From: Lachnospiraceae bacterium | Lineage (GTDB): Bacteria; Bacillota; Clostridia; Lachnospirales; Lachnospiraceae | DNA: 64,000 nt | Direction of reading: 5' to 3' | NCBI GenBank assembly: GCA_017431345.1 | Contig: JAFRLH010000055.1 | Span: 58,229-122,228, forward strand | In this document: positions 12,531 through 28,950 of the stretch, piece by piece | Layout of the letters: each line of letters starts with the position of its first letter | How positions within the stretch are numbered: position 1 is the stretch's first letter | Notes under the pieces: generated by a model | Database searches by the model: none | Told to the model about the DNA's origin: nothing | What the model saw: only the letters and a program-made list of their open reading frames with translations | Program-made: the position numbers and the translations under genes

Positions 12531-12839
12531 CTAATCATATTCAAATATACCCTGTATGGCATCTGATACGTTCATGACCATATAATAGGGGAGACTGTCA
12601 ATAATCATACAGGATCTTTTTCCCGGGTCGATCATTTTCATCTGCTCACAGATGACCGTACCGGAAAAACCTGAAACGCCGCTTACCGGTATATGAAGCG
12701 GGCCTTCCGGAATATCCTCCGGGACAGGACACACATGAAATACACCGGTTGCATCAATAAAAGCATTATTGCTCACGATCAGGAACCGCAGTTTCTGACC
12801 GGACATCTTAATGATCTGTCCCTGCCGGAATTCTGTCAT
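12531..12839 (-). CDS. mazF: Type II toxin, PemK/MazF family
   Basis: 102 aa with FLIVSNNAFIDATGVFHVCPV...VICEQMKMIDPGKR. It overlaps the upstream antitoxin gene by 4 bp. Confidence 0.75.
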   Translation of the reverse strand: MTEFRQGQIIKMSGQKLRFLIVSNNAFIDATGVFHVCPVPEDIPEGPLHIPVSGVSGFSGTVICEQMKMIDPGKRSCMIIDSLPYYMVMNVSDAIQGIFEYD

Positions 12840-13078
12840 AAAATCTCCTTTCCGACAGGATCTCCCCAGTCAAATTCATAAACAGATATTTCTCCGTCAT
12901 AATCTGCCAGGCGTTCTTTAAATGATCTGTGCGCAAACTCTTTCTGAAGCACGATCATCCCGTTTTCCACTTTCACGTTCAGGACATCTGAAACAGTGAT
13001 CCCAAGCTGATCCAGGATCTCTTTCGGAAGCCTGATTCCCTGACTGTTTCCCCACGCTCTTACAGCGACCTGAAGCAT
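12836..13078 (-). CDS. mazE: Type II antitoxin, AbrB/MazE/SpoVT family
   Basis: MLQVAVRAWGNSQGIRLPKEILDQLGI... is a SpoVT-AbrB swapped-hairpin signature. Confidence 0.8.
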   Translation of the reverse strand: MLQVAVRAWGNSQGIRLPKEILDQLGITVSDVLNVKVENGMIVLQKEFAHRSFKERLADYDGEISVYEFDWGDPVGKEIL

Positions 13079-13270: not shown

Positions 13271-13717
13271 TCAGCCTTCGATCGCGATATATTTCTTCTG
13301 CTCAACTTCCTGCTGTTTCTCTTTCTTGGGAACCAGGATCGTCAGGATACCATCGGCGAATTTCGCCTTGATGTCTTCCTGGGTGATCTGCTCGCCCACA
13401 TAGAAGCTCCTGCTCATCGAACCGGAATATCTTTCCTTCCTCAGATACTTGCCTTCCTGATCCTTCTCATCCTTGTTCTCGGAATGGGAAGCTTCGATGG
13501 TAAGGGTACCGTCTTTAAGATCTGCCTTCACGTCTTCTTTGGTGAAGCCGGGCAGTTCCATCTCGATCTGGTAGTTATCCTCGGTTTCCTTAATATCGGT
13601 GTTCATCTGGGTCACCTGGGTGCGTCCGAAATGACGGGCCGGCCAGAAACTGTCGTTAAAGAATTCATCAAACAGGCTGTCTGTAAAATTATCATTGAAA
13701 ATGCTGGGTCTTAACAT
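13271..13717 (-). CDS. Hsp20/alpha-crystallin small heat-shock protein
   Basis: 148 aa with DIKETEDNYQIEMELPGFTKEDVKADLKDGTLTI...FADGILTILVPK. Confidence 0.9.
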   Translation of the reverse strand: MLRPSIFNDNFTDSLFDEFFNDSFWPARHFGRTQVTQMNTDIKETEDNYQIEMELPGFTKEDVKADLKDGTLTIEASHSENKDEKDQEGKYLRKERYSGSMSRSFYVGEQITQEDIKAKFADGILTILVPKKEKQQEVEQKKYIAIEG

Positions 13718-13840
13718 AATGCTTACCTCCTTCTATTCTATGCGCCTTTCGGCGGTCTGACAGTTGTCGTTTTAAGAATGCGCTACTTCATTGAGCGCTT
13801 TTGTTTTTCTCAATTCAAGTGCTCTGTTATTCTGCAAATG

Positions 13841-13959
13841 TGTCATCCTGAGCAAGCGAAGCGCGTCGAAGGATCTTCGCTCTGAAACAGGCGGCTTTAC
13901 TAAAACCGCAAGCATTACGCGGTGGATTCTTCCGTTGCTCTGCGCCTTCAGAATGACAG
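13841..13959 (+). repeat. 119-bp MITE/REP-like element with TGTCATYCTGA terminal inverted repeats (copy B)
   Basis: It starts TGTCATCCTGAGCAAGCGAAGCGCGTCGAAGGATCT and ends CTTCAGAATGACAG. It aligns along its whole length with the minus strand of 49234-49352. Confidence 0.6.
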
Positions 13960-13964
13960 ATGTT

Positions 13965-14303
13965 TTATTCGATCGTGATCCTCTTCTCCTCAGCTGCCTT
14001 CTCGTAAGCAATCTTCGGAATCGTCAGGATCAGGACACCGTCCTTATAAGCTGCTTTGACATCTTCAGTCTTGATGTCTCCGACATAGAAACGTCTCTGG
14101 CACTTGCCGGTATAGCGTTCTTTTCTGAGAGGCTTCATGGTCTCGTCATTCAGGAACTTGGCTTCTACGGTCAGATATTCTTTCTCAACGTACGCTGCGA
14201 TCTTTTCCTTGGCGCAGCCCGGGATGTCTACCTTCAGCACATAAGCCTCATTGTTTTCCAGAATATCGCATCTCATTAAATCATTTCTTCTTTCCATGAT
14301 CAT
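13965..14303 (-). CDS. Hsp20/alpha-crystallin small heat-shock protein
   Basis: M(I)MERRNDLMRCDILENNEAYVLKVDIPG...YKDGVLILTIPK. Start placed at ATG 14303 or 14297. The track ORF extends to 14399. Confidence 0.85.
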   Translation of the reverse strand: MIMERRNDLMRCDILENNEAYVLKVDIPGCAKEKIAAYVEKEYLTVEAKFLNDETMKPLRKERYTGKCQRRFYVGDIKTEDVKAAYKDGVLILTIPKIAYEKAAEEKRITIE

Positions 14304-14423
14304 CCCTTCTTTCCGTATGATTAAGAGGATCCTTGGGCATTCCGGCTTCCGGTGGATACGCTTTTCTGCATCTGCACCGCCTTCCTGCGTTCTGATCACT
14401 CTCTTTTTTCTCTTTACGCCTAT

Positions 14424-14452
14424 GTTATAGCACTTCTGTTAGCACTCGTCAA
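14424..14452 (-). promoter_or_regulatory. Sigma-A type promoter of hsp20 overlapping CIRCE
   Basis: The minus strand has TTGACG (14452-14447), a 17-nt spacer, then TATAAC (14429-14424). The -35 lies in the CIRCE spacer. Confidence 0.55.
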
Positions 14453-14465
14453 GAGTGAGTGCTAA
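14439..14465. promoter_or_regulatory. CIRCE operator (HrcA binding site)
   Basis: TTAGCACTC-GTCAAGAGT-GAGTGCTAA is a perfect match to the TTAGCACTC-N9-GAGTGCTAA consensus. Confidence 0.85.
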
Positions 14466-14627
14466 CATTTTTTGTGAAATTTCCGTGAAGAAATGATTAA
14501 ATGACTTATTTTGCGGGTTCCGGTCTTCTTTCCATCGAAAATATACTGTACTGATCTGTGCAATATTCTTCTTATAGTTCGTTCTGCTGCCCAACGCAAG
14601 ACGCCGCCTGATAACCTCAGACGGCGT
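14449..14627. repeat. Non-coding module copy X1 plus hairpin H1
   Basis: tcaagagtgagtgctaacattttttgtgaaatttccgtgaa... is identical for ~41 nt to 16327 onward. It is homologous to 22024 onward, with an internal deletion. It ends in the hairpin AGACGCCGCCTGA-taacc-TCAGACGGCGT at 14599-14627. Confidence 0.8.
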
Positions 14628-14648
14628 TTCGACATGTGAATTTCTTTC

Positions 14649-15992
14649 TTATTTGAGTTTGGACATCAGAACAGATGCCATGTAGATTGGCAAAAATTTA
14701 ATCCCCTGTTCTTTATGCACATCTTTCTGGGATAGAACGATCGTTTCCTTTACAGACCCGGAATACTTTTTTCGAAAACAATCCAGCGACTCATGTTTTC
14801 CGGTTCCCGAAGCTTTCACCTCCAGCGCTGTGATCTTTGCTTTCTCTGTGATCAGGAAATCGACTTCATAGTAATGAGTGCTCCCTTCCTTTTCCCAGGT
14901 ATGATAGAACAATTCCCTTCCTGCGGCAGCAATCATCTGTGCTACCGCATTTTCATACAGATATCCAAGGTTTGCCGGAAGCTTGTCAGACAACAGTTTT
15001 GCGTAGATTTCATTTTCAGCCGCAGGGCGGTCGATAAACATAAGCGTTACAAACAGACCGGTATCCGCGATATACATTTTATAACTGCTCAGATCCTTCG
15101 TATCTGTCAATGTCACATGCGGATCCGTAGTATTATAAGAGATCAGAACCGTTTTGGAATCGATCAGATCATAAAGACGTTCTTCATCCCGTTCCGTTTT
15201 TTTCTTTTTGGTAGCACCGGAAAGCAGATATCGTTTCGTATCTTTGGATAGCTGCCCGGGAATTGAATGATACATCGCGGAAATTCTGCCGGAAGAATCG
15301 ATTTTTTTGAAATCCGCCTCGTATAATTCCAGAATAGACCTTTTCACCATATCGATCTCGGAGAAACTTTTCCCCTGCGTATAGGCCTCTACCGCCTGAG
15401 GCATACCGCCCACTGCCATATACAGCCTGAAATCACGCATCATCTGCCGGTTGATCTGCTGCTCCATACTCTTTCCGGACCGGTACAACTGCTCAATAAC
15501 TTCATAAGAATGCTTTCCGACTGCCAGAAGAAACTCCTCATAATCCATAGGATAAACCGGCAGTTTCATCTCCTCCGACGGAATCAGGATATTTTTTACA
15601 TTTCTCCGAATAGAAATCAGGGATCCGGTCTCGATATAATGATATCTGCCATCTTTCACCAGATATTTGATCGCCTGTCTCGCCGGCGGATACAGCTGAA
15701 TCTCATCGAATATGATCACGGATCTGTGTTGTACCAGCTGAACACCGGTGACTGCCTGCAGCCGCAGAAAAAACATGTCGATATCTGCAAGATCATCAAA
15801 ACATGACATAACCGTTTTTGAGGCAGAGGCAAAATCGATCAGAATATACGAATCATATTCATTTTTCGCAAAAGATTCCGCTATCGTTGACTTACCGACA
15901 CGTCTGGGGCCTTCCAGAAGAATGCTGTAGTGATCCGCATACTTCTCCTTCCATTCCAGAAGCCGGTCATAGGCTTTTCTCTTGAAAATCAT
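14649..15992 (-). CDS. AAA-type P-loop NTPase with a DUF4143-like / PD-(D/E)xK-like C-terminal domain
   Basis: 447 aa. Walker A is LLEGPRRVGKST and Walker B is VIIFDEIQ. The C-terminus is YEVDFLITEKAKITALEVKASG. A GGGAGGG RBS precedes it. Confidence 0.8.
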   Translation of the reverse strand: MIFKRKAYDRLLEWKEKYADHYSILLEGPRRVGKSTIAESFAKNEYDSYILIDFASASKTVMSCFDDLADIDMFFLRLQAVTGVQLVQHRSVIIFDEIQLYPPARQAIKYLVKDGRYHYIETGSLISIRRNVKNILIPSEEMKLPVYPMDYEEFLLAVGKHSYEVIEQLYRSGKSMEQQINRQMMRDFRLYMAVGGMPQAVEAYTQGKSFSEIDMVKRSILELYEADFKKIDSSGRISAMYHSIPGQLSKDTKRYLLSGATKKKKTERDEERLYDLIDSKTVLISYNTTDPHVTLTDTKDLSSYKMYIADTGLFVTLMFIDRPAAENEIYAKLLSDKLPANLGYLYENAVAQMIAAAGRELFYHTWEKEGSTHYYEVDFLITEKAKITALEVKASGTGKHESLDCFRKKYSGSVKETIVLSQKDVHKEQGIKFLPIYMASVLMSKLK

Positions 15993-16023
15993 ATTGTCCG
16001 CCCTCCCTATATGGCCAAATATA

Positions 16024-16103
16024 GCATTTCTTCAATTGTTTTTCAAGCGAAATATTCCGTTTCTTCAATTATTTATCGTCAAACAACTTCCGTTTCTTCA
16101 ATA
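16024..16103. repeat. Three direct 14-bp repeats phased at 33 bp upstream of NTPase-1
   Basis: The copies are gcaTTTCTTCAATT (16024), ccgTTTCTTCAATT (16057) and ccgTTTCTTCAATa (16090). Confidence 0.7.
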
Positions 16104-16177
16104 TTATCCGATTGCTTATGTACCATTGCCTAATACTATTCCGAGCCCGAAGATGGTCTCCTGTCAGAATATGCAAT

Positions 16178-16380
16178 CTGACCAATTTTTTGACCAATTT
16201 TGCCTAACACCAGACGCCGCCTGATGAGCTCAGACGGCGTCTTCCTTTACTGCATATTGTGTTTTTCTTTTCCGGACACCACTACATAAGCCATGACAGG
16301 GGCTGTTAAACCGACCGCAACCGTAATCAAGAGTGAGTGCTAACATTTTTTGTGAAATTTCCGTGAAAATTGATGTGCTG
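16178..16380. repeat. Non-coding module copy Y2 plus the start of X2
   Basis: It contains cTGACCAATTTTtTGACCAATTTTg. Hairpin H2 is AGACGCCGCCTGA-tgagc-TCAGACGGCGTCT at 16212-16242. A ~90-bp conserved stretch then ends in the right CIRCE half, tcAAGAGTGAGTGCTAAc. It is about 93% identical by eye to 21875-22040. Confidence 0.85.
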
Positions 16381-16450
16381 TCCTATCTATGGTAACCATT
16401 TTTATCAATACAGCGGCAGATCGGGTCCGCCAAACCAATGTTTCGGCTTT

Positions 16451-16618
16451 TGTGCAATTTTGATAGCATCCGGACATTTTTACTGTCTCTGTTTTTGCAA
16501 TAATCTCCTCTTTACGGAAAAATGCTGTCACGATCCGTGCAATAATGCTGCCTTTCAGGATTTTCTACTGTCCTCTTGACCTTGTTTTTCTCAACTCTCC
16601 GCGTAAAAAAGGACAGTA
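16451..16618. repeat. Iteron-like array: three 42/43-bp units (TGTGCAATAA...TACTGTC) plus an inverted TACTGTCC/GGACAGTA pair
   Basis: TGTGCAAT-like words are at 16451, 16494 and 16536. (T/A)(A/G)CTGTC words are at 16481, 16523 and 16566. GGACAGTA is at 16611. Confidence 0.7.
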
Positions 16619-16859
16619 TAATTCTATTTTCGCAGCCTGATTGCACAAAAACGATACATTTCACCTGTTATTGCCTCTCTCAGCCGCATTTTGGGGACAG
16701 CACAATTTCATATATGCCTGTTTTTTGCACCGCTTCCCGCCTGAAATTGAAATTACGCCGCCATCAACATGACGAGGCCGCGATCCGTTCAGTTGGATCA
16801 CCGCCGCTTTCTTCGTGATCATCAGTATTCTCGAAAGCCATCGCCAAAAACAGAGATTT

Positions 16860-18803
16860 TCAAGTATGAGAGCCATTCTTCCGCCCGCAGCATTTCTTAT
16901 ACTTTTTCCCGCTGCCGCAGGGACAGGGATCGTTGGGGTAGATTTTTCTTACACCGGCCTTCACTTCTCCGGCGAGGCCATTCGGCATGGCCATGATCGG
17001 AATCGAATCCGCCGTCATTTCATTATCGACCTCAAAACCCAGCTGCTTCAGCTCCCTGCTCCCATTTTCAAGCAGGTCTGCAGCATTGCTGCTCATCGGA
17101 ACGATCACCGGGCGCCTTCCGGGAGCGGATGCCGGCATTAAAGACAACATCTCGTTCGGCGTATGGCCTCTCAGTTCAAACATTCGCGTGTGGTTGTTCA
17201 GATCCATAATGATCTTCGCAAAGGATTCGATCTGTCCCTTTGCAGAGAACTCGATTCCTCGGGAATTCAGTTCTTCCATATAGTCAGAAAGCATTCCGCC
17301 GCCGGAGAACACCATAAATGCGTACCGGCAAAGTTCCTCACTCAATTCTGCTTCCAGCTTCAGGTCATTCTGAAGGAATCTGAACAGCTTCTTATACGAT
17401 GGATTCGAGGCCGGGTACCCGTTTGCCGGGAGTTCCCGGATTTCAGTTTCCCCGGGAAGATAGAACGCAACATCCCTTTGCCTGGCTTCGATCGCGAGAA
17501 AAATATCTCCTTCTGCCGCTTCATTGGCAACCAGTCTGTTCCCCATCACGCGGCATGGATTCAGTTTTTGCGGGATTCTCTGCAAGAGCTTCTGAAATCC
17601 CCCGTAATCAGTCTGACTGCCGTTTCTCTGTTTGTACATCCGGAACAGATGTTTTACCGGTCCTACAACAAATAAAGCCGAAAATGTCTGCAGGCACTGA
17701 ATCAGCCATCTCGCATCTGTATGATAAGCCCTGTATCCGTTTTTGCAGATCACTTCATAGACCGCAGCCACATCCCAGGGTACCTCCACCGTATCGTCGG
17801 AGTATTCCGCAAGATAGTTCAGCTCATAGATGCCTTCCAGATGATACCAGTCTTCGTCCGTCGGCCGGAAATGTTCTTTTTTGATTGCCGCCTCGAACGC
17901 ATCCAGATCCTCCTCCGGCAGTTCCAACAGCACACTTCGCATGACATCCGGCTCCAGCAGATGCCGGGCCAGTTCATAGGCAATTCTGGGTTTTTTCTGT
18001 GCCTTCAGATCACAGCCGGTCTCTTCCGCCGTTTCTATAAGAAGGTCCTTGGGATACGAATTCAACAGATCCAGCAGCGAACCTGTGCTCTGTTTCTCCT
18101 GTACACGTGTCGTGGCAGAGGTCTTCGGAACCGGAGACACCTTCTGTTGTTCCGTGGCAGCCTGCAAGAGAAGACGGCTTGCCTCAGTAAGCATTGCGCT
18201 CGTAGATTTCCCAAGCAGATTATTGCGGCTTTTGATTTCTTTACAAGTGCCGATTCCCTGCCCTTTCCGTACGCGGTTAAAGACTGCGGCAAAGGACGGA
18301 TATCCAGGTCCTTCCTCTTTCAGGAAACAGCTATCCTTCAAGATCTGATTGATTTCTGTTCCATCGCCCCAATATTCATCTTCTTTTACCGAAACTTCTT
18401 TCAGTATGACCGGATAAAAGAGCGAGCTTTTATCGCTTTCCTCAGTAAACCGGATATCATCTAATATTTTTTCGACTTCTACTCTATACTCCGGAGCACT
18501 ATCCTGTTCTTTCACGCGGAAAGTAAACCAGGTTTTATTCATAAGCCAGTCGTCGGCGCAGGAATCCTTTGCACTCCAACAGGAGTACTCATAACTGTAG
18601 GGAATTCTTCCCTTTCCCTGACTCTCGAAGATACGATCTTTTTCCTGAAAGAACTCAAACTCAAACCGGGCTGTCCGCGGCAGCTCCAGCATTACTTCCA
18701 GTATATATGCCAGTTGGGAAAAAGTAATATGCAGCGGAAGATACGCGCGTCGCCAACGGGGCGGTTTAATACCTTTTCTGATTGCTTTGATCTGAATGAA
18801 CAT
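16860..18803 (-). CDS. PRiA4_ORF3-like N-terminal domain protein with a C-terminal SEC-C metal-binding motif
   Basis: 647 aa. The N-terminus IQIKAIRKGIKPPRWRRAYLPLHITFSQLAYILEVML resembles the IKPPIWRR module of the plasmid pRiA4b ORF-3 family. The C-terminus is PNDPCPCGSGKKYKKCCG. Confidence 0.7.
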   Translation of the reverse strand: MFIQIKAIRKGIKPPRWRRAYLPLHITFSQLAYILEVMLELPRTARFEFEFFQEKDRIFESQGKGRIPYSYEYSCWSAKDSCADDWLMNKTWFTFRVKEQDSAPEYRVEVEKILDDIRFTEESDKSSLFYPVILKEVSVKEDEYWGDGTEINQILKDSCFLKEEGPGYPSFAAVFNRVRKGQGIGTCKEIKSRNNLLGKSTSAMLTEASRLLLQAATEQQKVSPVPKTSATTRVQEKQSTGSLLDLLNSYPKDLLIETAEETGCDLKAQKKPRIAYELARHLLEPDVMRSVLLELPEEDLDAFEAAIKKEHFRPTDEDWYHLEGIYELNYLAEYSDDTVEVPWDVAAVYEVICKNGYRAYHTDARWLIQCLQTFSALFVVGPVKHLFRMYKQRNGSQTDYGGFQKLLQRIPQKLNPCRVMGNRLVANEAAEGDIFLAIEARQRDVAFYLPGETEIRELPANGYPASNPSYKKLFRFLQNDLKLEAELSEELCRYAFMVFSGGGMLSDYMEELNSRGIEFSAKGQIESFAKIIMDLNNHTRMFELRGHTPNEMLSLMPASAPGRRPVIVPMSSNAADLLENGSRELKQLGFEVDNEMTADSIPIMAMPNGLAGEVKAGVRKIYPNDPCPCGSGKKYKKCCGRKNGSHT

Positions 18804-18953
18804 GTTTCCTCCTGTGTTCCGAAATATGCTTTTTATTTTAGTTTCAGCAATACAGATCTTTTAACGTCAGCAGTTTTACTTTTTCCGAGTCCGCGTTTTC
18901 TTCCACGCTCATTTCCTGATCTTCCAAACTGCTGTCACGTGTCAAATGACTGT

Positions 18954-20300
18954 TCACTGCTTCCTTGCTCTGAGCCAGTCCCTTAACAGAAAGGTACAAT
19001 AATACGGAAAGGTATATATACTGTTCTCAATTCCCACATTATTCATGGATAGCTTTATTCCCCACTGAATATCAGCATACTTATCATTCCTGATCAGGGA
19101 TCTCAAAGACTGAGATCTGCCGCTTCGGGCTTTTACCTCCACCGGAATCAATCTTTCCGTATCTCTGACAAAGAAATCCTCCTCCAGCGTGCCATCCTCA
19201 CGCTTATAATAGTACAGCGAGTATCCTTGTTTATATAAGGCCTCCCCCACGATGTTCTCATATAGCGCTCCTTTATATACGCCAAGATTTTTATTGGCTC
19301 TCAGATCTTCCTGGGACTCGTCATCCAGCATAGCCGTCAGAATTCCCGTATCTGCCATGTACAGTTTGAATTTCAGATCGTCATAGTTTCCTTTTAACGG
19401 CAGTTCCGGAAAATTCAGACAGTAGCATTTTTTTACGATACCGGCATCCTGAAGCCAGTCTATACATCCGCCGTAATCATGAAATCTGGCACCTGAGGCC
19501 ACTTTTGAAATCTGAAATTTCTTGTTGTCCTTTGCCAGCTGAGCCGGTATTGCATCAAAGACCCTCGCAATACGTGTCTGATCCACGCCATCCGCATATT
19601 TCCTGATGTCGTCTCGGTAAGCAGTTATAATCTGTTTTTGAAGTTCATGGGTGCCTGAGAATGATTTCGTGTCATAATACCTCGCAACGACCTCCGGCAT
19701 GCCGCCAAGGATTGTGTAATCAATAAACAGCTGCATCAATGAATCCTGTATGGCACTGCCGAACGGCTTTCCTTCCAGCATATGAGACAGCAGATCCTGC
19801 TTCAGAGAGTCATCGTATCCTCTCGCCCACAAAAACTCCTCAAAATCCAGAGAATACATCTCATAGTCTGTTTTATACCCAACGCTGACACTCTCAATCT
19901 GTTTGTAGTTAATTCCAAGCAGAGAGCCGCTGCAGATGACATCAAAGCGATGATCAATGGCAAAGAACTTCAAGGATGTTGCAATGTCCGGGCAGGCCTG
20001 CATCTCGTCAAAGAACAGCAGAGTTCTGCCTGCTTCAAAATAGAATCCCGGTTCGATCCTTGTAATGTTTTTTATAATATCATCCGTATTATATCCGTTT
20101 TCAAGAATCGTTCTGAACTTCGGACTCTCGATGAAATTAATCTCGATAATGTTCTCATAGTGTGCTCCGGCAAATCTTCGGATGGATTCTGTTTTTCCGA
20201 TCTGCCGTGCTCCTTTTATGATTAATGGCTTTCTATCCTTGTCCCGGTACCAGTTTTCAAGATAATCATCAATTTTTCTTTTTAAATAGCTCATGTGCAC
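18954..20300 (-). CDS. AAA-type P-loop NTPase with a DUF4143-like / PD-(D/E)xK-like C-terminal domain (paralog of 14649-15992)
   Basis: 448 aa. Walker A is IIKGARQIGKTE and Walker B is LLFFDEMQ. The C-terminus is EEDFFVRDTERLIPVEVKARSG. Confidence 0.8.
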   Translation of the reverse strand: MHMSYLKRKIDDYLENWYRDKDRKPLIIKGARQIGKTESIRRFAGAHYENIIEINFIESPKFRTILENGYNTDDIIKNITRIEPGFYFEAGRTLLFFDEMQACPDIATSLKFFAIDHRFDVICSGSLLGINYKQIESVSVGYKTDYEMYSLDFEEFLWARGYDDSLKQDLLSHMLEGKPFGSAIQDSLMQLFIDYTILGGMPEVVARYYDTKSFSGTHELQKQIITAYRDDIRKYADGVDQTRIARVFDAIPAQLAKDNKKFQISKVASGARFHDYGGCIDWLQDAGIVKKCYCLNFPELPLKGNYDDLKFKLYMADTGILTAMLDDESQEDLRANKNLGVYKGALYENIVGEALYKQGYSLYYYKREDGTLEEDFFVRDTERLIPVEVKARSGRSQSLRSLIRNDKYADIQWGIKLSMNNVGIENSIYTFPYYCTFLLRDWLRARKQ

Positions 20301-20530
20301 ACCTGTCTTTCTGTTTTATATAGTATAATATTGATCTGAGCCACATCTGTCAATATTTTCAGAGCCATTTGCGTCTGCTTTCTTTTATTTTTAGAGCCAT
20401 TTATTGTCTTTTGGATACAATTTTTAGATAAAGCCCTCACATATTTCCTTATAAGCGTCAAGACAAGAAGCAAATATTTGTTCGCCTGACTGTCAGGAAT
20501 TACATACAGCATTCAACTATGCCCATCTAT

Positions 20531-20660
20531 CTGACCATTTTTTTGACCAGTTTCCCGTAAACCCAGACGCCGCCTGATACCTTCAGACGGCGTCTCCTAT
20601 TACTGTATATTGTTATCCTACACTCCGGATACCTGTGCATAAGGCATTACAGGCTCCATC
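20531..20660. repeat. Diverged non-coding module copy Y'
   Basis: It contains cTGACCATTTTTtTGACCAGTTTCc and hairpin H3, AGACGCCGCCTGA-tacct-TCAGACGGCGTCT, at 20565-20595. Homology to Y2/Y3 decays after that point. Confidence 0.7.
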
Positions 20661-20723
20661 AATAGTGTTCTTCTTCATATGTCCGGCGCACTAATTCATC
20701 AAAATAAGGCAAGGTAAAAGTAA

Positions 20724-21734
20724 CTACTCCCCAGCTGTCACCCTTAACAAGTCCTTTTTGATCAGCCTTTTCCGATATGGACTGAATTCATCTTTGCTCA
20801 GATGAAGAATCTCTCTCACTTCCGCTGTTCTGTGGCTCTGCGCCTTCGCTATTCCATAAGCAACAAACCGGTCTTTCTGCGACAGCCGTTCCCAGATAAT
20901 ATCATAGGCATAATCATGTAATCTGACTTTCCACTCCTTCCGCACCGCTTCTGTATACCGGCATTGATTTTTCCAGGTAAAATAACCAATCAGCTGAAAT
21001 GCGTAAGGATATCCTTTTGTTTCCCGGACCATATCCAGTGCAGTATCCGGATCCATTCCCAGTGTCTCTTTATAGTCATTCTGAATCTGCTGAATCTGTA
21101 AAGGCTCCATAATCAGTTTTGGTGCCCTATACAGAAAAGTAAGATTCTTTACATTTTGCAATTCTTCTATATTTTCAGACAGACCAGTCATCAGCAAAAA
21201 TACCGGAAGATCATCCCGGATGTATAATTGAAACGCACTTGCAAATGCCACCATTTCCTTTGATTTTATAATCTCATCGATCGCAATTAATACCCGTTTA
21301 TTCTGACGTTTGAGACTTTCGAGCATTTTTTTCAACGCGATTTCCGGATTGCTGATTTTGGGTGCTCCGGATACTTCCAGGCCCACTCCGAAAAATGACA
21401 GGTTGATACTGGCATTCTGAAAGACCCTGGCCAATGTTTTTTCTGCCGCCAGTGCAGAAATGGTTTTATCCAGTATATCGCCGCCTGAACTGATGCTGAC
21501 GACAATCCAGTCTTCCTGTTGTTTAAAATATGCCGTTGCGTCAGTTAAGAAAACTGTTTTCCCTGATCTCCGCACACCGGTTATCATGTAGATCTGGATC
21601 ATCGGTTCTGGCACTGTAAAATCATCCGTAACCTGTCGCAACAGTTTCTCCCGCCGAATATTACGGATCGGCTCCTTCCCAAACATAATAGAATATGGAT
21701 TCAGTTTCATTGCCTGCGATCTTCCTTTTTCCAT
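20724..21734 (-). CDS. P-loop NTPase (Arch_ATPase/ORC-Cdc6-like) with a wHTH-like C-terminus
   Basis: 336 aa. Walker A is ITGVRRSGKTV and Walker B is LIAIDEII. The likely start is MKLNPYSIMFG at 21710. Confidence 0.7.
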   Translation of the reverse strand: MEKGRSQAMKLNPYSIMFGKEPIRNIRREKLLRQVTDDFTVPEPMIQIYMITGVRRSGKTVFLTDATAYFKQQEDWIVVSISSGGDILDKTISALAAEKTLARVFQNASINLSFFGVGLEVSGAPKISNPEIALKKMLESLKRQNKRVLIAIDEIIKSKEMVAFASAFQLYIRDDLPVFLLMTGLSENIEELQNVKNLTFLYRAPKLIMEPLQIQQIQNDYKETLGMDPDTALDMVRETKGYPYAFQLIGYFTWKNQCRYTEAVRKEWKVRLHDYAYDIIWERLSQKDRFVAYGIAKAQSHRTAEVREILHLSKDEFSPYRKRLIKKDLLRVTAGE

Positions 21735-21874
21735 ACTGATAAAGTCCTTTCCCAGTCCAACGAATAATGACTGCTGTTTTACTCTTTCTAATTATTTTAC
21801 TCTTTTTACTCTTTTATTTTTTATTCCATTGTTTTAGCCAGATCAAGATATTTATGTCCGGAAAAGCCATAACT

Positions 21875-22080
21875 TTGACCAATTTTCTGACCAATTTTGC
21901 TTAACACCAGACGCCGCCTGATAACCTCAGACGGCGTCTTCCTTTACTGCATATTGTGTTTTTTTCTTCCGGATACCACTACATAAGCCATGACAGGGGC
22001 TGTTAAACCGACCGCAACCGTAATCAAGAGTGGGTGCTGACTTTTTTTGGTAACTTTTCGTGAGAAGTTGATGAAGTGAC
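21875..22080. repeat. Non-coding module copy Y3 plus the start of X3
   Basis: It contains tTGACCAATTTTcTGACCAATTTTg and hairpin H4 at 21909-21939. A conserved stretch follows, ending tcAAGAGTGgGTGCTgAc at 22024-22041. Confidence 0.85.
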
Positions 22081-22158
22081 TTATTTCTGCGTGTTTCGCT
22101 CTTCTTTCCATATACATTTCCGGGCAGCCAGCCGCCAATCTGCTTTTCCGGCTTCGTT

Positions 22159-22327
22159 TGTGCAATAAATGATGTTCTATAAAATTATACTGTCCCGGAT
22201 TGTGCAATAACCGCTTTCCATTGAAAAAATACTGTACTGATCTGTGCAATAATCTTCTTATAAAATGTTTATACTGTCCTAATTTCACTGACAGATGACA
22301 CAAGCCAGTGCAAATCAGGACAGTATA
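22159..22327. repeat. Iteron-like array: three exact-phase 42-bp units, followed by a 21-bp-arm inverted repeat
   Basis: TGTGCAATAA is at 22159, 22201 and 22243. ATACTGT(C/A)C is at 22187, 22229 and 22271. The inverted repeat is tatactgtcctaatttcactg (22270-22290) against cagtgcaaatcaggacagtata (22306-22327). Confidence 0.8.
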
Positions 22328-22667
22328 TTTTGTTTTTTGACTTCGAATTGCACACCGAACAGGAATACTATGCTTTTCTGCCGCCGTCATACGCTGTTTA
22401 ATGACAGTACACTTATTCAAAAACCTATAATTTTGCACTCTATTGGCATGACATGATAAAAAAACACCGCCTGATACGGAATGATGCAGCAGGGGACGTT
22501 ATTTCAGTCTTTTATTGTCATAATTTGCATAAAACCGGCAAATATTTGTTGAATTCTATTGTGATATTGATATTATATTAAATAAAGAATTATGAATCTG
22601 ACGGAGAAGGGATCTTCTCCCTGCTCCGTCTTCCGGCACCATCACGAAAGGGGGCGGCTGACAGGTA

Positions 22668-23639
22668 ATGTACTATTTTCGAAAAAAAATTTGCGGTTCA
22701 TTAAGAAGAGAAATGATCCGTGCTGTCCTTGAACGCATGCAGGGCATGGAAATCGAATTCAATACAGAACGAATAAACAATCTGCAGGAACAGGGATCAG
22801 ACGGGAAATACGAAGTTGACAAAATGCTGAACATTCCGTACATGAACCGCGGTGAGGTCCCTCTGGCGATGGATATTTTCAGGCCGGTCGTCCCCGAAGG
22901 GCAGGAACTGCCTGTAATCATCACGATCCATGGCGGCGGACTTGTGGCCGGGGACCGTTCGATCTCAAGATACCTCGCGAACGATCTCGCCGGACGGGGA
23001 TATCTCGTCTTCTCCCTGGAATACAGACTGGCTCCGCGGGCGAACGCGGCGGAACAGCTTGATGACATCTGCGCCGGCATGGATCTGGTCGGCAGAAAAC
23101 TCGTGGATTTCGAAGTGGATTTCACGCGCATCTTCCTGACGGCGGAAAGCGCCGGCGCTTATCTGGCGATCTATGTTGCCGCCATGAAAAAATCTGAAAA
23201 GCTTCAGAAAGCGATCGGGTATGAGCCTACCAGAATGACCTTCAAAGCGCTCGGGCTGATCTCCGGCATGTTCTATACGAAACGCCGGGATCCCATCGGA
23301 CTGCTTCTCTCCGAGCAGTTCTACGGCGATAAGCGCCTGGACAGGGATTTTCTTCAGTACATGGATCCCGAACACCCGGAGATCATTGACAATCTGCCTC
23401 CTGTTTTCCTGATCACGAGCCGGGGGGATTTTCTGAACAATTATACCCTGATGTATCACAAGGCGCTGAAAAAGGCAGGAAAAAAGACACATCTTGTCTA
23501 TTATGGAGAAAAGGAACTTTCTCATGCTTTTGCTTCCCTCTCCCCCGATCTTGAACAGGGAAAGGATGCGATCGACCGGATGCTCCGCTGGTTCGAGGAA
23601 CAGGCAGATGCGGCCGGCAAAGATCCCGCGAAGCAGTAA
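22668..23639 (+). CDS. Alpha/beta-hydrolase fold-3 carboxylesterase/lipase
   Basis: It has the oxyanion-hole motif IITIHGGGLVAGD and the nucleophile-elbow-like motif TAESAGAY. The exact start is uncertain; internal Met codons are possible. Confidence 0.8.
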   Translation: MYYFRKKICGSLRREMIRAVLERMQGMEIEFNTERINNLQEQGSDGKYEVDKMLNIPYMNRGEVPLAMDIFRPVVPEGQELPVIITIHGGGLVAGDRSISRYLANDLAGRGYLVFSLEYRLAPRANAAEQLDDICAGMDLVGRKLVDFEVDFTRIFLTAESAGAYLAIYVAAMKKSEKLQKAIGYEPTRMTFKALGLISGMFYTKRRDPIGLLLSEQFYGDKRLDRDFLQYMDPEHPEIIDNLPPVFLITSRGDFLNNYTLMYHKALKKAGKKTHLVYYGEKELSHAFASLSPDLEQGKDAIDRMLRWFEEQADAAGKDPAKQ

Positions 23640-23692
23640 TTTCTGAAATGAATTTTAATTATTAATAAATGATCTGTAAGGAGGAATCTGAT

Positions 23693-23914
23693 ATGGCACT
23701 TCGAAAAAAAGCCCCAAAAATCATGAAACCCGTCCTTCCGGCCCGTCCCCCCATCGCCCGCCGTCCGAAGCCCATTAAGCCCGGGCGCCGTCCTGCAGGC
23801 CCCGCTCCTGCCCTGCTTCTTCTTGCTGCAGTGCCGGCAATCAAGAACAAGCGGAAAAAGACTGCAGCCGAACCCGGCAAGGCACCTGCCGAACAGCCCC
23901 CGGCTGATTCCTGA
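23693..23914 (+). CDS. 73-aa Pro/Lys/Arg-rich small protein with one hydrophobic segment
   Basis: A strong RBS, TAAGGAGGAATCTGAT, precedes the ATG. The sequence is MALRKKAPKIMKPVLPARPPIARRPKPIKPGRRPAGPAPALLLLAAVPAIKNKRKK... I recognise no homology, and low complexity makes the coding call uncertain. Confidence 0.45.
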   Translation: MALRKKAPKIMKPVLPARPPIARRPKPIKPGRRPAGPAPALLLLAAVPAIKNKRKKTAAEPGKAPAEQPPADS

Positions 23915-23961
23915 CCTGCAGGCCGCTTCTTCAGAACAAGAAAGGAACTGTACTCCGGGAA

Positions 23962-26076
23962 ATGAATACGATCGAACAGAAGAACTACGAGAAGGTCTCT
24001 GCGCGTGTCAGAAGCGGAAAGATCACGGCGCAGAAGAGCTGGAAAATGATCAGAGAGCTGAATTCCTTCAGCGACGAGAGGCTTGATAAAGCTGCCCTCA
24101 TTACCGGTAAGCGCACATTCACATACCGCCAGCTGTTCAGGCAGTGGGAACGCTATGCGGAAGCGTTCTCAGGTCTGGGGATTACCTGGAGAAAGCATTC
24201 CAGAGTCGGAGTAGTATCCACCCCCTCCGCCGAATCCGTGTTCACTTTTTACGGGCTGAACATGACAGGCGCTTCCGTATCCATGATCCACATGCTGGAT
24301 GTACTGGAAAGTTCCCGTTTTGACATAATGATCCGCAAAGAAGGGCTCACAGATCTTATTTTCAGCGATATTGCCGTAAATCCCGCGCTGGTACGGCGTA
24401 TTGCGGAAAACAAAGAGTCACTCGGCCTCCGCAATATTATCATTTCACAGAATACTGTGGCAGGCCCCTTTGCTCCCCCTGAGCTGAAGCTGCACAGCAG
24501 GATGATCCACAGACAGTTAAAGACGATCCCCGGCGTCCTGTTCATGGATGACCTTCTTGAAGAATACGAAGCCCATCCCATTGTTTACGGACGCAGCGCT
24601 TCTGCGGAAGACGCGCTCATCATTCATACTTCAGGGACCACGAGCGGGATCCATAAGCCTGTTCCCTTTTCTGATCAGGCATTTAACGAATCTGTCTCCA
24701 GGCTTTTGACAGACGAAAGGTTCCGTTTTATGGAGGGAACTGCCGTCTCATTCCTGGGAATGGAACTGGCCGCGTCTTATGCTGTCATGGACATGATGCA
24801 TCTTCCGCTTTCCTTTGGCGGTGCTATTGTAACGATTCCCATGGGCATCTTTAATCCGTTGATGGGGAAGGCTATTCCGCATTACGGCGTGAATATCATG
24901 TTCGGGTCTCCCGGCATGATCGAAGACTGGATCAGAGTCCCGGAAAAACCGGATCTGTCCTCGCTCGCCTTTATCTTCCTTGGCGGCGTATATGTCTCGC
25001 TGGACGAAAAACGCCGGCTGGATAATTATCTTGCAGAATGCGGCTGCAAAGTCCGTACTACGATCGGTTACGGACTTACCGAAGCAGGGGCTGCTGTCAT
25101 CATTTCGGATGCAGAACGCACAGACGATGCCATCGGATTTCCGCTGCAGGGAGTAAAGGTCCTGATCTGCGATGAAGAGGACGGAAAATTCTATACGCCG
25201 GAAGACGGGCCCCATACCGGCACCCTTTTCCTGTCGACGCCGTCTTTAAGCAGCGGCAGGATCGATGACGAAGTCTTTTTTACGCTTGATGAAATAGACG
25301 GAGAGTCTTTCCTGAACACCTATGACAAGGTGACAGTCTATGAAGACGGCAGCCTTTGCTGCATCGGCAGGACAGACAAATACTTCGTGAATAATGAAGG
25401 CGTCCGGTTCGACGCAGGGATCGTGGAAACCGCGGTGGCAGCGCAGCCGGGGATCAGGGCCTGCGCGCTCGCTCCCGGATTTGACAAACTTCTTCACGAT
25501 ACGATTCCCGTCCTGTATGTCAGTACAACGGTGGCCGGCCGCGGTGCCGCAGGCGTCGTCCGCCAGGCTCTGTGCAATGCTTTCATAAAGGAGAACAGAA
25601 TACAGGAAACAAATCTTCCGGGACAATGCGTCATCACGGAGAAGATCCCATTCACGGAGACCGGGAAGGTAGATGTGCACAAGATCTTAAAGGCCGGGAT
25701 CAACGGAAAACGATTTACCGTGACGCCTGTACGGATCCGGGGGAAGCTTACAGATGTAACGCTTATTCCCGCTCCCGACTCGGTCCAAGAAAAGATCGGC
25801 TTATGGACAGGGCTCCCTGAAGAACTGGAAATGAATGCAGATGTTCTCAAAACGGCTTTCACACCTGCTTTTGAACGCGCCAAATCCGGTAAGAACAGGG
25901 CTTTCGCCCCGCCGGTCCCGCCCGGGAAGTCCGGAGAACAGGGCTTTCGGAATTTTGATCCGCGCAGGAAGCATCTTCAATTTACGATCATGCTTCTGCA
26001 GCATTCCCTGGAATTCTGCCGCAGACTGCAGGGATCGATCGCGCCTGAACCTGAAGATGATGACACATTTTCGTAA
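23962..26076 (+). CDS. Divergent adenylate-forming (AMP-binding/ANL superfamily) enzyme, paralog A
   Basis: 704 aa. Motifs are IIHTSGTTSGIHKP (A3-like), IGYGLTEAG (A5), IGRTDKYFVNNEGVRF (A8) and PFTETGKVD (A10 Lys). About 120 aa of non-catalytic C-terminal extension follow. Confidence 0.8.
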   Translation: MNTIEQKNYEKVSARVRSGKITAQKSWKMIRELNSFSDERLDKAALITGKRTFTYRQLFRQWERYAEAFSGLGITWRKHSRVGVVSTPSAESVFTFYGLNMTGASVSMIHMLDVLESSRFDIMIRKEGLTDLIFSDIAVNPALVRRIAENKESLGLRNIIISQNTVAGPFAPPELKLHSRMIHRQLKTIPGVLFMDDLLEEYEAHPIVYGRSASAEDALIIHTSGTTSGIHKPVPFSDQAFNESVSRLLTDERFRFMEGTAVSFLGMELAASYAVMDMMHLPLSFGGAIVTIPMGIFNPLMGKAIPHYGVNIMFGSPGMIEDWIRVPEKPDLSSLAFIFLGGVYVSLDEKRRLDNYLAECGCKVRTTIGYGLTEAGAAVIISDAERTDDAIGFPLQGVKVLICDEEDGKFYTPEDGPHTGTLFLSTPSLSSGRIDDEVFFTLDEIDGESFLNTYDKVTVYEDGSLCCIGRTDKYFVNNEGVRFDAGIVETAVAAQPGIRACALAPGFDKLLHDTIPVLYVSTTVAGRGAAGVVRQALCNAFIKENRIQETNLPGQCVITEKIPFTETGKVDVHKILKAGINGKRFTVTPVRIRGKLTDVTLIPAPDSVQEKIGLWTGLPEELEMNADVLKTAFTPAFERAKSGKNRAFAPPVPPGKSGEQGFRNFDPRRKHLQFTIMLLQHSLEFCRRLQGSIAPEPEDDDTFS

Positions 26077-28920: not shown

Positions 28921-28950
28921 GGAGTTGGTAAATCTCCCGTGAACAGGATA

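What the first reader, a model, noticed from the sequence alone, without database searches (positions are those of the whole stretch)
14439..22440. AT-rich, repeat-bounded cassette array of three orphan NTPases plus a PRiA4_ORF3/SEC-C protein: candidate undescribed defence or mobile module
Between hsp20 (start 14303) and the esterase operon (22668) the sequence becomes visibly AT-richer. This stretch carries four minus-strand genes with no metabolic context. Two are paralogous Walker A/B NTPases ending in a D...E-V-K (PD-(D/E)xK-like) motif: YEVDFLI..ALEVKASG and EEDFFV..PVEVKARSG. A third is an unrelated P-loop NTPase with a wHTH-like tail. The fourth is a 647-aa protein with an IKPPRWRR (PRiA4_ORF3-like) N-terminus and a CPCGSGKKYKKCC SEC-C end. 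NTPase-1 and NTPase-3 are each preceded by a full copy of the same non-coding module (16178-16660 and 21875-22440). NTPase-2 has only a diverged copy (20531-20660), and there is an X-only copy at 14449-14627. Standalone ATPase-nuclease genes in a compositionally distinct, direct-repeat-bounded island resemble defence or mobile cassettes. I cannot match them to any named system, and no recombinase is present.
Basis: partly seen in the sequence, partly recalled or inferred. Interest (0 to 1): 0.8.

Follow-up and report, generated by a model that had tools for sequence, protein, structure and literature searches.

The report
Swappable ATPase gene cassettes beside hsp20
An AT-rich 8-kb stretch next to a heat-shock gene in a gut Lachnospiraceae chromosome is a strain-variable slot holding self-contained ATPase genes of unproven, possibly anti-phage, function, separated by repeated junction pieces that include a tiny conserved membrane-peptide gene.

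Summary
Four minus-strand genes lie in the most AT-rich 8 kb of the window (GC 0.44 vs 0.51), separated by repeats far beyond chance.

NTPase-1 and NTPase-2 are not orphans. They are full-length COG1373 proteins (AAA_14 + DUF4143 PD-(D/E)xK), which is PADLOC's untested candidate PDC-S01. NTPase-3 belongs to a large Lachnospiraceae "ATP-binding protein" family and is frameshifted. The 647-aa protein is a rare PRiA4_ORF3 + SEC-C protein whose homologues are not linked to NTPases elsewhere. So there are four independent genes, not one system.

The "non-coding module" is a composite junction:
- hsp20-type promoter sequence with the left arm of a CIRCE operator;
- a conserved 27-codon hydrophobic ORF;
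- an invariant 13-bp hairpin;
- a GGTCA direct-repeat box.

The "X-only copy" is the real hsp20 promoter with a perfect CIRCE.

Related contigs show cassette gain, loss and replacement at these junctions. The same cassettes also sit next to a CIRCE-hsp20 in other species at 87-93% nt identity.

Most likely this is an insertion hot spot upstream of hsp20 that turns over by recombination at repeated junctions. A defence role is plausible but unsupported.

The parts
14439..14465 (.). Perfect CIRCE (HrcA operator) of the hsp20 operon. The -35 TTGACG (14452-14447) lies inside it and the -10 TATAAC at 14429-14424.
   Evidence: One search gives an exact match to TTAGCACTC-N9-GAGTGCTAA. The promoter hexamers are read and are an inference.
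14466..14599 (-). Copy A of the junction. It holds hsp20-proximal sequence Q, one TTATTGCACA-N7-ACAGTAT unit (14543-14566) and half of hairpin H2 (14577-14586).
   Evidence: (families D5, D6, D11).
14600..14627 (.). Hairpin H, copy A, 22 nt after the NTPase-1 stop codon.
14649..15992 (-). NTPase-1: a COG1373 ATPase-nuclease (AAA_14 + DUF4143), matching PADLOC PDC-S01.
   Evidence: AAA_14 1.7e-20, DUF4143 4e-16. (PDC-S01 1.1e-95, residues 1-443). (6982 cluster representatives at E<=1e-3).
16018..16102 (-). NTPase-1 promoter TTGAAA-17-TATATT (16046-16018), with three ATTGAAGAAA repeats spaced 33 nt apart.
16179..16198 (-). T box (ATTGGTCAAAAAATTGGTCA), copy B. Cassette-specific sequence starts at or within about 20 nt 3' of it (for NTPase-1, about 20 nt further).
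16213..16240 (.). Hairpin H, copy B.
16247..16330 (-). Micro-ORF R, copy B: (TTG)-ITVAVGLTAPVMAYVVVSGKEKHNMQ*.
16321..16660 (-). Q with the left CIRCE arm (16321-16389), followed by the X array of TTGCAC..ACAGTA motifs. This is copy B, the more diverged one.
16860..18803 (-). 647-aa protein: PRiA4_ORF3-like N-terminal domain, a helical middle region and a SEC-C zinc motif at the C-terminus.
   Evidence: SEC-C 3e-9; PRiA4_ORF3 20.1 bits, below the cut-off. (model pLDDT 85.5; fold match to 2I1S, E 8.7e-6). (only 29 homologues).
18954..20300 (-). NTPase-2: a COG1373 ATPase-nuclease, 28% identical to NTPase-1.
   Evidence: DUF4143 1.8e-36, AAA_14 7e-24. (PDC-S01 4.9e-158)..
20325..20402 (-). NTPase-2 promoter TTGACA-17-TATTAT (20353-20325), with two AAATGGCTCTNAAAATA repeats.
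20532..20674 (-). Degraded junction copy D: T (20532-20551), H (20566-20593) and a decayed micro-ORF (20618-20674).
20659..21734 (-). NTPase-3: a P-loop ATPase of the ATPase_2 type. A -1 frameshift in an A-run near 20755 puts its last 31 residues in another frame.
   Evidence: (more than 3000 homologues)..
21777..21814 (-). Three AAAGAGTAAAA repeats upstream of NTPase-3. The orthologous cassette in L037 has five.
21876..22027 (-). Junction copy C: T (21876-21895), H (21910-21937) and micro-ORF R (21944-22027).
22018..22480 (-). Copy C: Q with the left CIRCE arm, the X array, and a 3' half of H with a T-run (22458-22475).

Best explanation
The interval between core genes and the CIRCE/HrcA-controlled hsp20 operon is a strain-variable insertion hot spot in a ruminant-gut Lachnospiraceae chromosome. 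It is filled with self-contained single-gene cassettes, and each ATPase gene has its own promoter and gene-specific promoter-proximal direct repeats.

The cassettes encode:
- two COG1373 ATPase + PD-(D/E)xK nuclease proteins (PADLOC candidate PDC-S01);
- one frameshifted ATPase_2-type ATPase;
- one rare PRiA4_ORF3/SEC-C protein.

These do not form one system.

The repeated 'modules' are junction elements. They combine pieces of the resident hsp20 upstream region (promoter-proximal sequence with the left CIRCE arm, and a GGTCA direct-repeat box), a 13-bp GC hairpin, and a 27-codon ORF for a hydrophobic peptide.

Shown: the junctions were duplicated as cassettes accumulated, and cassettes are gained, lost or replaced at them.

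Inferred: exchange happens by homologous or illegitimate recombination between junction copies after horizontal DNA uptake, without a dedicated recombinase.

Inferred from domains only: the COG1373 proteins act as NTP-driven DNA nucleases in genetic conflict.
For: Gene identities.

Independent promoters and repeats.

Junction anatomy.

CIRCE: the perfect CIRCE sits only next to hsp20, while copies B and C keep just the left arm.

T box: it lies about 120 nt upstream of CIRCE-hsp20 with no gene between in L009 and L013. In L011 it flanks the NTPase-1 cassette on both sides.

Micro-ORF: it is conserved in 7 distinct copies. Variable columns by codon position are 3/4/10 of 16 (Fisher p = 0.007). 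All replacements are conservative, and TTG or ATG sits at the same position. There is no RNA-structure signal.

Variation:
- L001 is 99.8% identical over 8.4 kb but lacks NTPase-3 and has a SASA gene upstream.
- L009 has window-identical hsp20 with an L013-type upstream region. Both alleles occur in one sample.
- In L015 a different secreted-protein gene sits behind the NTPase-1 leader, and the 6.5-kb esterase/AMP-ligase block is absent.
- L013 and L017 carry DUF4160/DUF2442/HTH and sigma-factor cassettes between the same hairpins.

Cassette boundaries: L037 homology to the window runs 21880-20651 at 86.9%. That is exactly from T to the next junction, and it again lies upstream of a perfect CIRCE-hsp20.

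Transfer: NTPase-1 is 96.8% identical in L011 while the adjacent hsp20 is only 45% identical.

Distribution: the hairpin is confined to one locus per genome in the 185,579 species-representative genomes scanned.

No recombinase was found among the 37 window ORFs scanned.
Against: The exchange mechanism is not shown.
- Cassette-specific sequence begins at or within about 20 nt of the T box in many independent junctions.
- One large insertion junction falls in the loop of H.
- The H stem is invariant over about 20 copies.
All three are also what a site-specific system would give.

Only a handful of related contigs could be examined, most of them short metagenomic assemblies that break at the repeats.

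The recurring position next to hsp20 could reflect a functional tie to the heat-shock response rather than an insertion preference.

The defence role has no direct support. The one PDC-S01 representative tested was not among the systems that protected against T4, T5 or T7 (PMC12881386), and the window has no validated defence genes beside it.
Confidence: 0.55

Rival explanations
1. A site-specific cassette platform analogous to an integron. The H hairpin (with optional H2 and H3) plus the T box is the recombination site at the end of each cassette, and it is recognised by a recombinase encoded elsewhere in the genome. Cassettes are excised and inserted as units next to hsp20.
For: - Cassettes are delimited by T on the 5' side and by H on the 3' side in more than 6 independent cases.
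- The H stem is invariant while its loop varies.
- The element comes in short (about 60 nt) and long (about 150 nt) forms, as attC sites do.
- It is confined to one locus per genome.
- One insertion junction lies in the H loop.
- The NTPase-3 cassette is shared across species exactly between junctions.
Against: - No integrase or other recombinase was found among the 37 window ORFs scanned.
- Cassettes carry their own promoters and long leaders.
- One cassette lies inverted relative to its junctions (L016).
- Duplications extend well beyond H and T into flanking gene ends and promoter DNA.
- The L001/window junction is about 130 nt beyond T.
- L037 carries the cassette with only diverged T/H2/H3 and no H.
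Confidence: 0.15
2. The ATPase genes are ordinary chromosomal paralogues functionally tied to the heat-shock regulon. They would be regulated through CIRCE-like and CtsR-like operators, and they would be neither mobile nor defensive.
For: ATPase genes lie directly upstream of a CIRCE-hsp20 in four lineages: the window, L011, L023 and L037. The T box resembles the CtsR heptad repeat (PMC12634643). The junctions carry hsp20-type promoter sequence.
Against: - The same species has alleles with no ATPase next to hsp20 (L009/L013).
- Cassette content differs between strains that are 99.8% identical.
- NTPase-1 is 97% identical where hsp20 is 45% identical.
- GC is 7 points below the surroundings.
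- A 50%-identical NTPase-3 homologue sits next to pgi and an IS3 transposase.
- The T spacing is 4-5 nt, not the 3 nt of CtsR boxes.
- The ATPase promoters are plain sigma-70 type lying downstream of T.
Confidence: 0.12
3. The COG1373 ATPase-nucleases are themselves selfish, homing-type elements. Their PD-(D/E)xK domain would cut a site in the hsp20 upstream region (for example T), and the gene would be copied in by repair. The junction repeats would be repair scars.
For: - The nuclease + ATPase + DNA-binding architecture.
- A very large, patchy, multi-copy family (PMC13356809).
- The NTPase-1 cassette is flanked by direct T copies in L011.
- The same cassette sits at the same kind of site in two species.
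Against: NTPase-3 and the other cargo (secreted protein, DUF4160/DUF2442, sigma factor) have no nuclease domain yet occupy the same slots. No target-site evidence exists. No member of the family has any demonstrated activity, and no solved structure was found by sequence search of the PDB.
Confidence: 0.08

Closest known systems
PADLOC phage defence candidate PDC-S01 (COG1373; AAA_14 + DUF4143)
   Same: NTPase-1 and NTPase-2 match the PDC-S01 profiles over their whole length. They have both Pfam domains above the cut-off, Walker A/B motifs and a D..ExK motif. They are single-gene units, as PDC-S01 is defined.
   Different: PDC-S01 is an untested 'guilt-by-embedding' candidate (bioRxiv 10.1101/2024.01.29.577857). 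One representative tested in E. coli B was not among the systems that protected against T4, T5 or T7 (PMC12881386). Here two 28%-identical paralogues sit in one hot spot. They are not embedded in a known system.
Integrons and attC cassette arrays (including CALINs)
   Same: An array of gene cassettes, mostly in one orientation, each followed by a palindromic element of variable length. The element is confined to one locus, and cassette content varies between strains.
   Different: No integrase or attI is present. Cassettes have their own promoters and leaders of 150-900 nt. The junction includes a coding micro-ORF and promoter DNA. One cassette is inverted. The host is a Firmicute.
Defence/accessory-gene integration hot spots between conserved core genes (as described for E. 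coli and Pseudomonas pangenomes; from my own knowledge)
   Same: Fixed flanks (hsp20 on one side, tal or other core genes on the other). The cargo is variable and AT-richer and differs between close strains. It includes candidate defence genes and toxin-antitoxin-like pairs.
   Different: There is no mobile-element backbone or integrase in the slot. Cassettes are separated by locus-specific repeated junctions derived partly from the neighbouring heat-shock promoter.
CIRCE/HrcA operator of class I heat-shock genes
   Same: 14439-14465 is an exact TTAGCACTC-N9-GAGTGCTAA overlapping the -35 of hsp20.
   Different: Junction copies B and C keep only the left arm. There it is fused to the start (TTG) of the micro-ORF, so they cannot form the operator.
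Type I toxin-antitoxin loci (small hydrophobic toxin followed by a shared terminator)
   Same: A 25-27-residue peptide with a hydrophobic stretch of about 19 residues and a polar tail, followed at 5-8 nt by a strong hairpin. It is multi-copy in a variable region.
   Different: No antisense promoter or RNA could be identified. There is no Shine-Dalgarno sequence, no family match, and toxicity is untested. The tail is acidic in some copies.

Membership tests
COG1373 / PADLOC PDC-S01 | N-terminal AAA_14 P-loop domain above the Pfam gathering score | tested here: met
   73.8 bits (NTPase-1) and 84.7 bits (NTPase-2) against a cut-off of 27. Walker A GxxxxGK[ST] and hhhhDE are visible.
COG1373 / PADLOC PDC-S01 | C-terminal DUF4143 (PD-(D/E)xK clan) with the D..(D/E)xK motif | tested here: met
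   59.6 and 125.8 bits against a cut-off of 28.1. The motifs are EVDFLI..ALEVK and EEDFFV..PVEVK. DUF4143 is listed as PD-(D/E)xK in PMC3424549.
COG1373 / PADLOC PDC-S01 | Full-length match to the PDC-S01 profile as a single-gene locus | tested here: met
   E 1.1e-95 (residues 1-443 of 447) and 4.9e-158 (residues 6-441 of 448). NTPase-3 gives only 2e-4 over 49 residues, so it is not a member.
COG1373 / PADLOC PDC-S01 | Protection against phage or plasmid | not testable with these tools
   Literature only. The candidate is untested (10.1101/2024.01.29.577857; PMC12988326). One representative was not among the systems that protected against T4, T5 or T7 (PMC12881386).
Integron | Tyrosine-recombinase integrase gene next to the array | tested here: not met
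   No recombinase domain in 37 window ORFs scanned against Pfam. The rest of the genome was not available.
Integron | Promoterless cassettes in a single orientation, each ending in an attC site | tested here: not met
   The cassettes have their own sigma-70 promoters. L016 holds an inverted cassette. The junctions contain a coding ORF and promoter DNA.
CIRCE/HrcA operator | TTAGCACTC-N9-GAGTGCTAA upstream of a chaperone gene | tested here: met
   0 mismatches at 14439-14465, the only site in 64 kb. It is also present before hsp20 in L011, L023 and L037.
CtsR operator | (A/G)GTCAAA-NAN-(A/G)GTCAAA, i.e. heptads with a 3-nt spacer, overlapping a promoter (PMC12634643) | tested here: not met
   The T boxes are GGTCAAA-AAATT-GGTCAGA (window) and GGTCAAA-AATT-GGTCAAA (L009, L011), so the spacers are 4-5 nt. 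Only the diverged L037 copy has a 3-nt spacer.
PRiA4_ORF3 (PF07929) | Domain match above the Pfam cut-off, or the fold of the prototype 2I1S | tested here: met
   The sequence score is 20.1 bits, below the 26.6 cut-off. However, the model (pLDDT 85.5) matches 2I1S at E 8.7e-6 with target TM 0.56, and 14 of 29 homologues carry PF07929.
SEC-C motif (PF02810) | C-terminal CxC..CC zinc motif above the cut-off | tested here: met
   36.9 bits against 20.4; matches to SecA and YchJ C-terminal peptides.
Type I toxin-antitoxin | Small hydrophobic toxin ORF under purifying selection | tested here: met
   third-position bias (p = 0.007), conservative replacements, and a mean Kyte-Doolittle value of 1.5-2.1 over the first 19 residues.
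Type I toxin-antitoxin | Overlapping antisense RNA antitoxin, and toxicity on expression | tested here: inconclusive
   The antisense strand was read by eye across T and H, and no convincing promoter was seen (sequence). Expression and toxicity are not testable here.
Defence island | Neighbourhood enriched in validated defence systems | tested here: inconclusive
   The window has only a MazE/PemK pair (12531-13078) and an HTH+Uma2 gene nearby. In L037 the NTPase-3 cassette directly follows Wadjet jetC-jetD. That is a single instance.

The most novel reading that the evidence does not exclude
The hairpin/T-box junction together with its micro-ORF may define a previously undescribed cassette-exchange system in Firmicutes. 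It would be anchored at the hsp20 promoter. Cassettes would be moved either by a recombinase acting in trans or by the COG1373 ATPase-nucleases themselves. If the latter, it would also give the hugely abundant PDC-S01/COG1373 family its first function.
Probability: 0.13. Interest if true: 0.8.

Novelty: new variant of a known kind. Interest (0 to 1): 0.47.

Why it matters
COG1373/PDC-S01 proteins are reported as one of the most common unexplained gene families in gut, rumen and archaeal genomes, and nothing is known about what they do.

This locus offers a compact natural experiment. The same cassettes are present, absent or replaced next to one heat-shock promoter in co-existing strains, and they are shared between species at 87-97% identity. 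That makes both questions directly testable: how such genes move, and whether they protect.

The junction micro-ORF and the invariant hairpin are candidate handles for the exchange mechanism.

If the locus turns out to be only a recombination-prone hot spot, it is still a useful marker of strain variation in Lachnospiraceae, but not a new biological principle.

Tried and rejected
- Rfam scan of 13500-23500 at E<=1 found nothing.
- No tRNA or tmRNA in the window that could serve as an integration target.
- R as a structured RNA was rejected: z = -1.5, and no compensatory pairs outside the invariant hairpin.
- X as coding sequence (the 164-aa ORF) was rejected: no codon-position bias, and the frame is broken in copy B.
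- The module has no match in plasmid or phage collections or in IMG/VR.
- A genome-wide REP/BIME-like repeat was rejected. The hairpin occurs only in this region of the 64-kb window and at one locus per genome in the representative genomes.
- IS200/IS605-type insertion (the junction reads TTGA|TTAC) was considered, but there is no TnpA or TnpB, and X is duplicated with the junction.
- NTPase-2 + SEC-C as a two-gene system was rejected. None of seven homologue contexts pairs them.
- A search for the micro-ORF peptide in the protein database failed. The query was too short, and then no shared words were found. It also has no Pfam or NCBIfam match.
- No solved structure is related by sequence to NTPase-2 or NTPase-3.
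- The exact esterase protein was not on record.

Full report

Yes. Four long minus-strand ORFs fill 14649-21734. The interval 14439-22440 has GC 0.440 against 0.511 for the rest of the window, the lowest of all 8-kb windows. The three NTPase genes are 0.43-0.44 GC, and the neighbouring esterase and AMP-ligase genes are 0.52-0.55.

- 16179-16369 matches 21876-22066 at 92% over 191 nt.
- A diverged copy lies at 20523-20653 (74-76%).
- A partial copy lies at 14449-14627.

A 28-nt hairpin, GACGCCGYCTGA-N4-ATCAGRCGGCGT, occurs four times with at most 2 mismatches, where none is expected by chance. Independent assemblies from other samples reproduce the whole arrangement at 99.9-100% identity (L002, L003, L032). 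It is therefore not an assembly artefact.

**2. What the genes are**

*NTPase-1 and NTPase-2.* Both carry AAA_14 and DUF4143 above the Pfam cut-offs. Both match PADLOC's PDC-S01 profiles end to end, at E 1e-95 and 5e-158. They are 28% identical to each other.

- The family is very large: 6,982 cluster representatives at E<=1e-3 for NTPase-1.
- PDC-S01 is reported as the most frequent single locus called in rumen genomes and the fourth most common 'defence' call in prokaryotes (PMC13356809, PMC12988326).
- It is an untested 'guilt-by-embedding' candidate (bioRxiv 10.1101/2024.01.29.577857).
- The one representative tested in E. coli B was not among the systems that protected against T4, T5 or T7 (PMC12881386).
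- No solved structure is related by sequence.

*NTPase-3.* It is a different P-loop ATPase, with weak ATPase_2 and AAA_14 matches. Its family has more than 3,000 members, mostly named 'ATP-binding protein' and mostly from Lachnospiraceae. Compared with homologues that are 92% and 89% identical, the window gene has lost its last ~31 residues through a frameshift in an A-run. The missing tail, GLVKGDSWGVVTFTLPYFDELVRRTYEEEHY*, is encoded in another frame down to 20659.

*The 647-aa protein.*
- It has a clear SEC-C motif and a sub-threshold PRiA4_ORF3 match.
- A confident model (pLDDT 85.5) matches only the PRiA4_ORF3 prototype 2I1S, over the N-terminal ~165 residues. The helical remainder matches nothing.
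- Only 29 homologues were found among 5.8 billion proteins.
- In seven homologue contexts it is not next to a COG1373 gene.
- One 60%-identical homologue (L023) again lies about 7 kb upstream of a CIRCE-hsp20, and the interval holds two ATPase_2-type ATPases (a 27%-identical NTPase-3-like ORF and a 475-aa ATPase_2 protein).

*Transcription.* NTPase-1 and NTPase-2 have strong sigma-70-type promoters of their own: TTGAAA-17-TATATT for NTPase-1 and TTGACA-17-TATTAT for NTPase-2. Each ATPase gene also has gene-specific direct repeats beside its promoter or start. The four genes are therefore separate units and not an operon or a conserved multi-gene system.

**3. What the 'non-coding module' is**

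Read on the minus strand, a full junction contains these elements in order:

- **H**, a hairpin with a 13-bp stem.
- **X**, about 330 nt holding five or six TTGCAC..ACAGTA motifs.
- **Q**, hsp20-type promoter-proximal sequence that ends in the left arm of a CIRCE.
- **R**, about 85 nt.
- **H** again.
- Optionally two further hairpins, **H2** and **H3**.
- **T**, the box AATTGGTCA-N4-ATTGGTCA.
- Then the next gene's leader.

The copy next to hsp20 is the real promoter. It holds the only perfect CIRCE in the window, TTAGCACTC-N9-GAGTGCTAA at 14439-14465. My reading of the sequence places the -35 hexamer inside it. Copies B and C break off in the CIRCE loop and continue into R.

R is coding:
- In seven distinct copies from at least four genomes, an ORF starts with TTG or ATG at the same position. 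It encodes M-I-T-V-A-V-G-L-T-A-P-V-M-A-Y-V-V-V-S-G plus a short polar tail, 25-27 residues in all.
- Variable columns by codon position are 3, 4 and 10 of 16 (Fisher p = 0.007), and every replacement is conservative.
- No RNA structure is supported beyond H.
- No protein family matches it.

X is not coding.

In relatives, T lies about 120 nt upstream of CIRCE-hsp20 with nothing in between (L009, L013). So T, like Q, belongs to the resident hsp20 upstream region. Its heptads resemble the CtsR box, but they are spaced by 4-5 nt instead of 3 (PMC12634643). I therefore do not file T as a CtsR operator.

**4. Variation and mobility**

Variation is extensive.

- **L001.** It is 99.8% identical to the window over 8.4 kb, but it lacks the NTPase-3 cassette and has a SASA esterase gene followed by a Q-R-H-T junction instead.
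- **L009.** It has window-identical hsp20 preceded by an L013-type upstream region with no NTPase-1 (98% to L013). The window-type allele was assembled from the same sample (L034).
- **L015.** The orthologue of the window's transaldolase gene (29021-29737) is followed directly by H-X-Q-R-H-T. The NTPase-1 leader there drives an unrelated secreted protein, followed by the 3' remnant of another DUF4143 gene. The 6.5-kb esterase/AMP-ligase block of the window is absent, and its junction falls in the loop of H.
- **L013/L017.** A DUF4160-DUF2442-HTH cassette and a sigma-factor/surface-protein block lie between the same hairpins.
- **L016.** An NTPase-3 homologue lies between two junctions in the opposite orientation.

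Across species:
- L011 (Lachnospiraceae MAG, roe deer) carries NTPase-1 at 96.8% amino-acid identity, flanked by direct T copies and followed by CIRCE-hsp20. Yet its hsp20 is only 45% identical.
- L037-L039 carry an intact NTPase-3. Their nucleotide homology to the window runs 21880-20651 at 86.9%, which is exactly the stretch between the window's junctions. Here it lies between Wadjet jetC-jetD and another ATPase, upstream of a perfect CIRCE-hsp20-dnaJ.
- A 50%-identical NTPase-3 homologue in Pseudobutyrivibrio is elsewhere, next to pgi and an IS3 transposase.
- The hairpin pattern was found at only one locus per genome in three Lachnospiraceae representatives. It was not found in viral, plasmid or phage collections.

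**5. Mechanism**

Shown:
- The interval upstream of hsp20 is a hot spot.
- Discrete cassettes bounded by T and H/R are gained, lost and replaced there.
- At least two cassettes are shared between species.

Inferred: how the exchange happens. I favour recombination between the repeated junctions after DNA uptake, for these reasons:
- Duplications extend into gene 3' ends, promoter DNA and the micro-ORF.
- Junction positions are not uniform. The L001/window break is about 130 nt beyond T.
- Cassettes have their own promoters, and one is inverted.
- No recombinase domain was found in the 37 window ORFs scanned.

A site-specific mechanism with a recombinase encoded elsewhere is not excluded. The invariant H stem, the onset of cassette-specific sequence at or just after T, and the hairpin-loop junction all fit it.

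The function of the COG1373 proteins (NTP-dependent nuclease acting on foreign DNA) is inferred from domains only. The single published test did not show protection. The micro-ORF looks like a small membrane peptide. A type I toxin role is a guess, with no antisense partner found.

**6. Verdict**

The genes are members of known, although functionally unexplained, families. The locus is a new variant of a known kind: an accessory or defence-candidate hot spot between core genes. What distinguishes it is junction elements built from a heat-shock promoter, an invariant hairpin and a conserved micro-ORF. Interest is moderate. It would be high if the junctions prove to be sites of a dedicated cassette-exchange system, or if the COG1373 proteins mobilise themselves.

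**Limits**

Only exact-pattern scans and a dozen context look-ups were possible. Most related contigs are short metagenomic assemblies that break at the repeats. No complete genome of the species was available.

Noticed in passing
window 20659-20760: NTPase-3 carries a -1 frameshift in an A-run. It is identical in three independent assemblies, so it is probably a real pseudogene. The intact 358-aa form exists in L037-L040.
   Followed up: yes
window 16027-16102; 20354-20402; 21777-21814; L037:4840-4905: Each ATPase gene has its own short direct repeats beside its promoter or start. NTPase-1 has ATTGAAGAAA three times at 33-nt spacing. NTPase-2 has AAATGGCTCTNAAAATA twice at 32-nt spacing. NTPase-3 has AAAGAGTAAAA three times, and the L037 orthologue has five. 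They may be operators for the ATPases' DNA-binding domains.
   Followed up: partly
window 22478-28980 compared with L015:2310-2470: The 6.5-kb esterase + two AMP-ligase block on the plus strand is absent in L015, where the transaldolase gene abuts H-X directly. In the window only the 3' half of H remains (22465-22475), so this 'operon' may itself be an inserted cassette.
   Followed up: partly
window 22110-22440 and 16390-16660: The X array holds a bipartite motif, TTGCAC-N12-TA(T/A)AAT-like, present 2-3 times as direct copies. It also holds inverted TATACTGTCC / GGACAGTA copies. The motifs are kept even in the diverged copy B. The spacing is too short for sigma-70, and what binds them is unknown.
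   Followed up: partly
L037:1-4571 (also L038, L040): Wadjet jetC and jetD genes lie immediately upstream of the NTPase-3 cassette in another species. This is the only instance seen of a validated defence system beside one of these ATPases.
   Followed up: no
window 12531-13078: A MazE antitoxin and PemK/MazF-like toxin pair lies directly downstream of the two hsp20 genes. It is conserved in all same-species contigs.
   Followed up: no
window 5950-6876: A gene encoding an HTH_3 domain fused to a Uma2 (restriction-endonuclease-like) domain lies about 7 kb from the hot spot.
   Followed up: no
L009 and L034 (both from sample ERZ28018966): Both hsp20-upstream alleles, with and without the NTPase-1 cassette, were assembled from one metagenome. 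This implies co-existing strains that differ at the hot spot.
   Followed up: partly
window 14437-14477 (+ strand): Read on the plus strand, the CIRCE hairpin is followed by TTTTTTGTG and scores as an intrinsic terminator. It could stop antisense transcription coming out of hsp20.
   Followed up: no
window 26086-28920: The 944-aa AMP-binding protein has a long low-complexity C-terminal region, with a weak glutenin-like match over residues 713-904.
   Followed up: no
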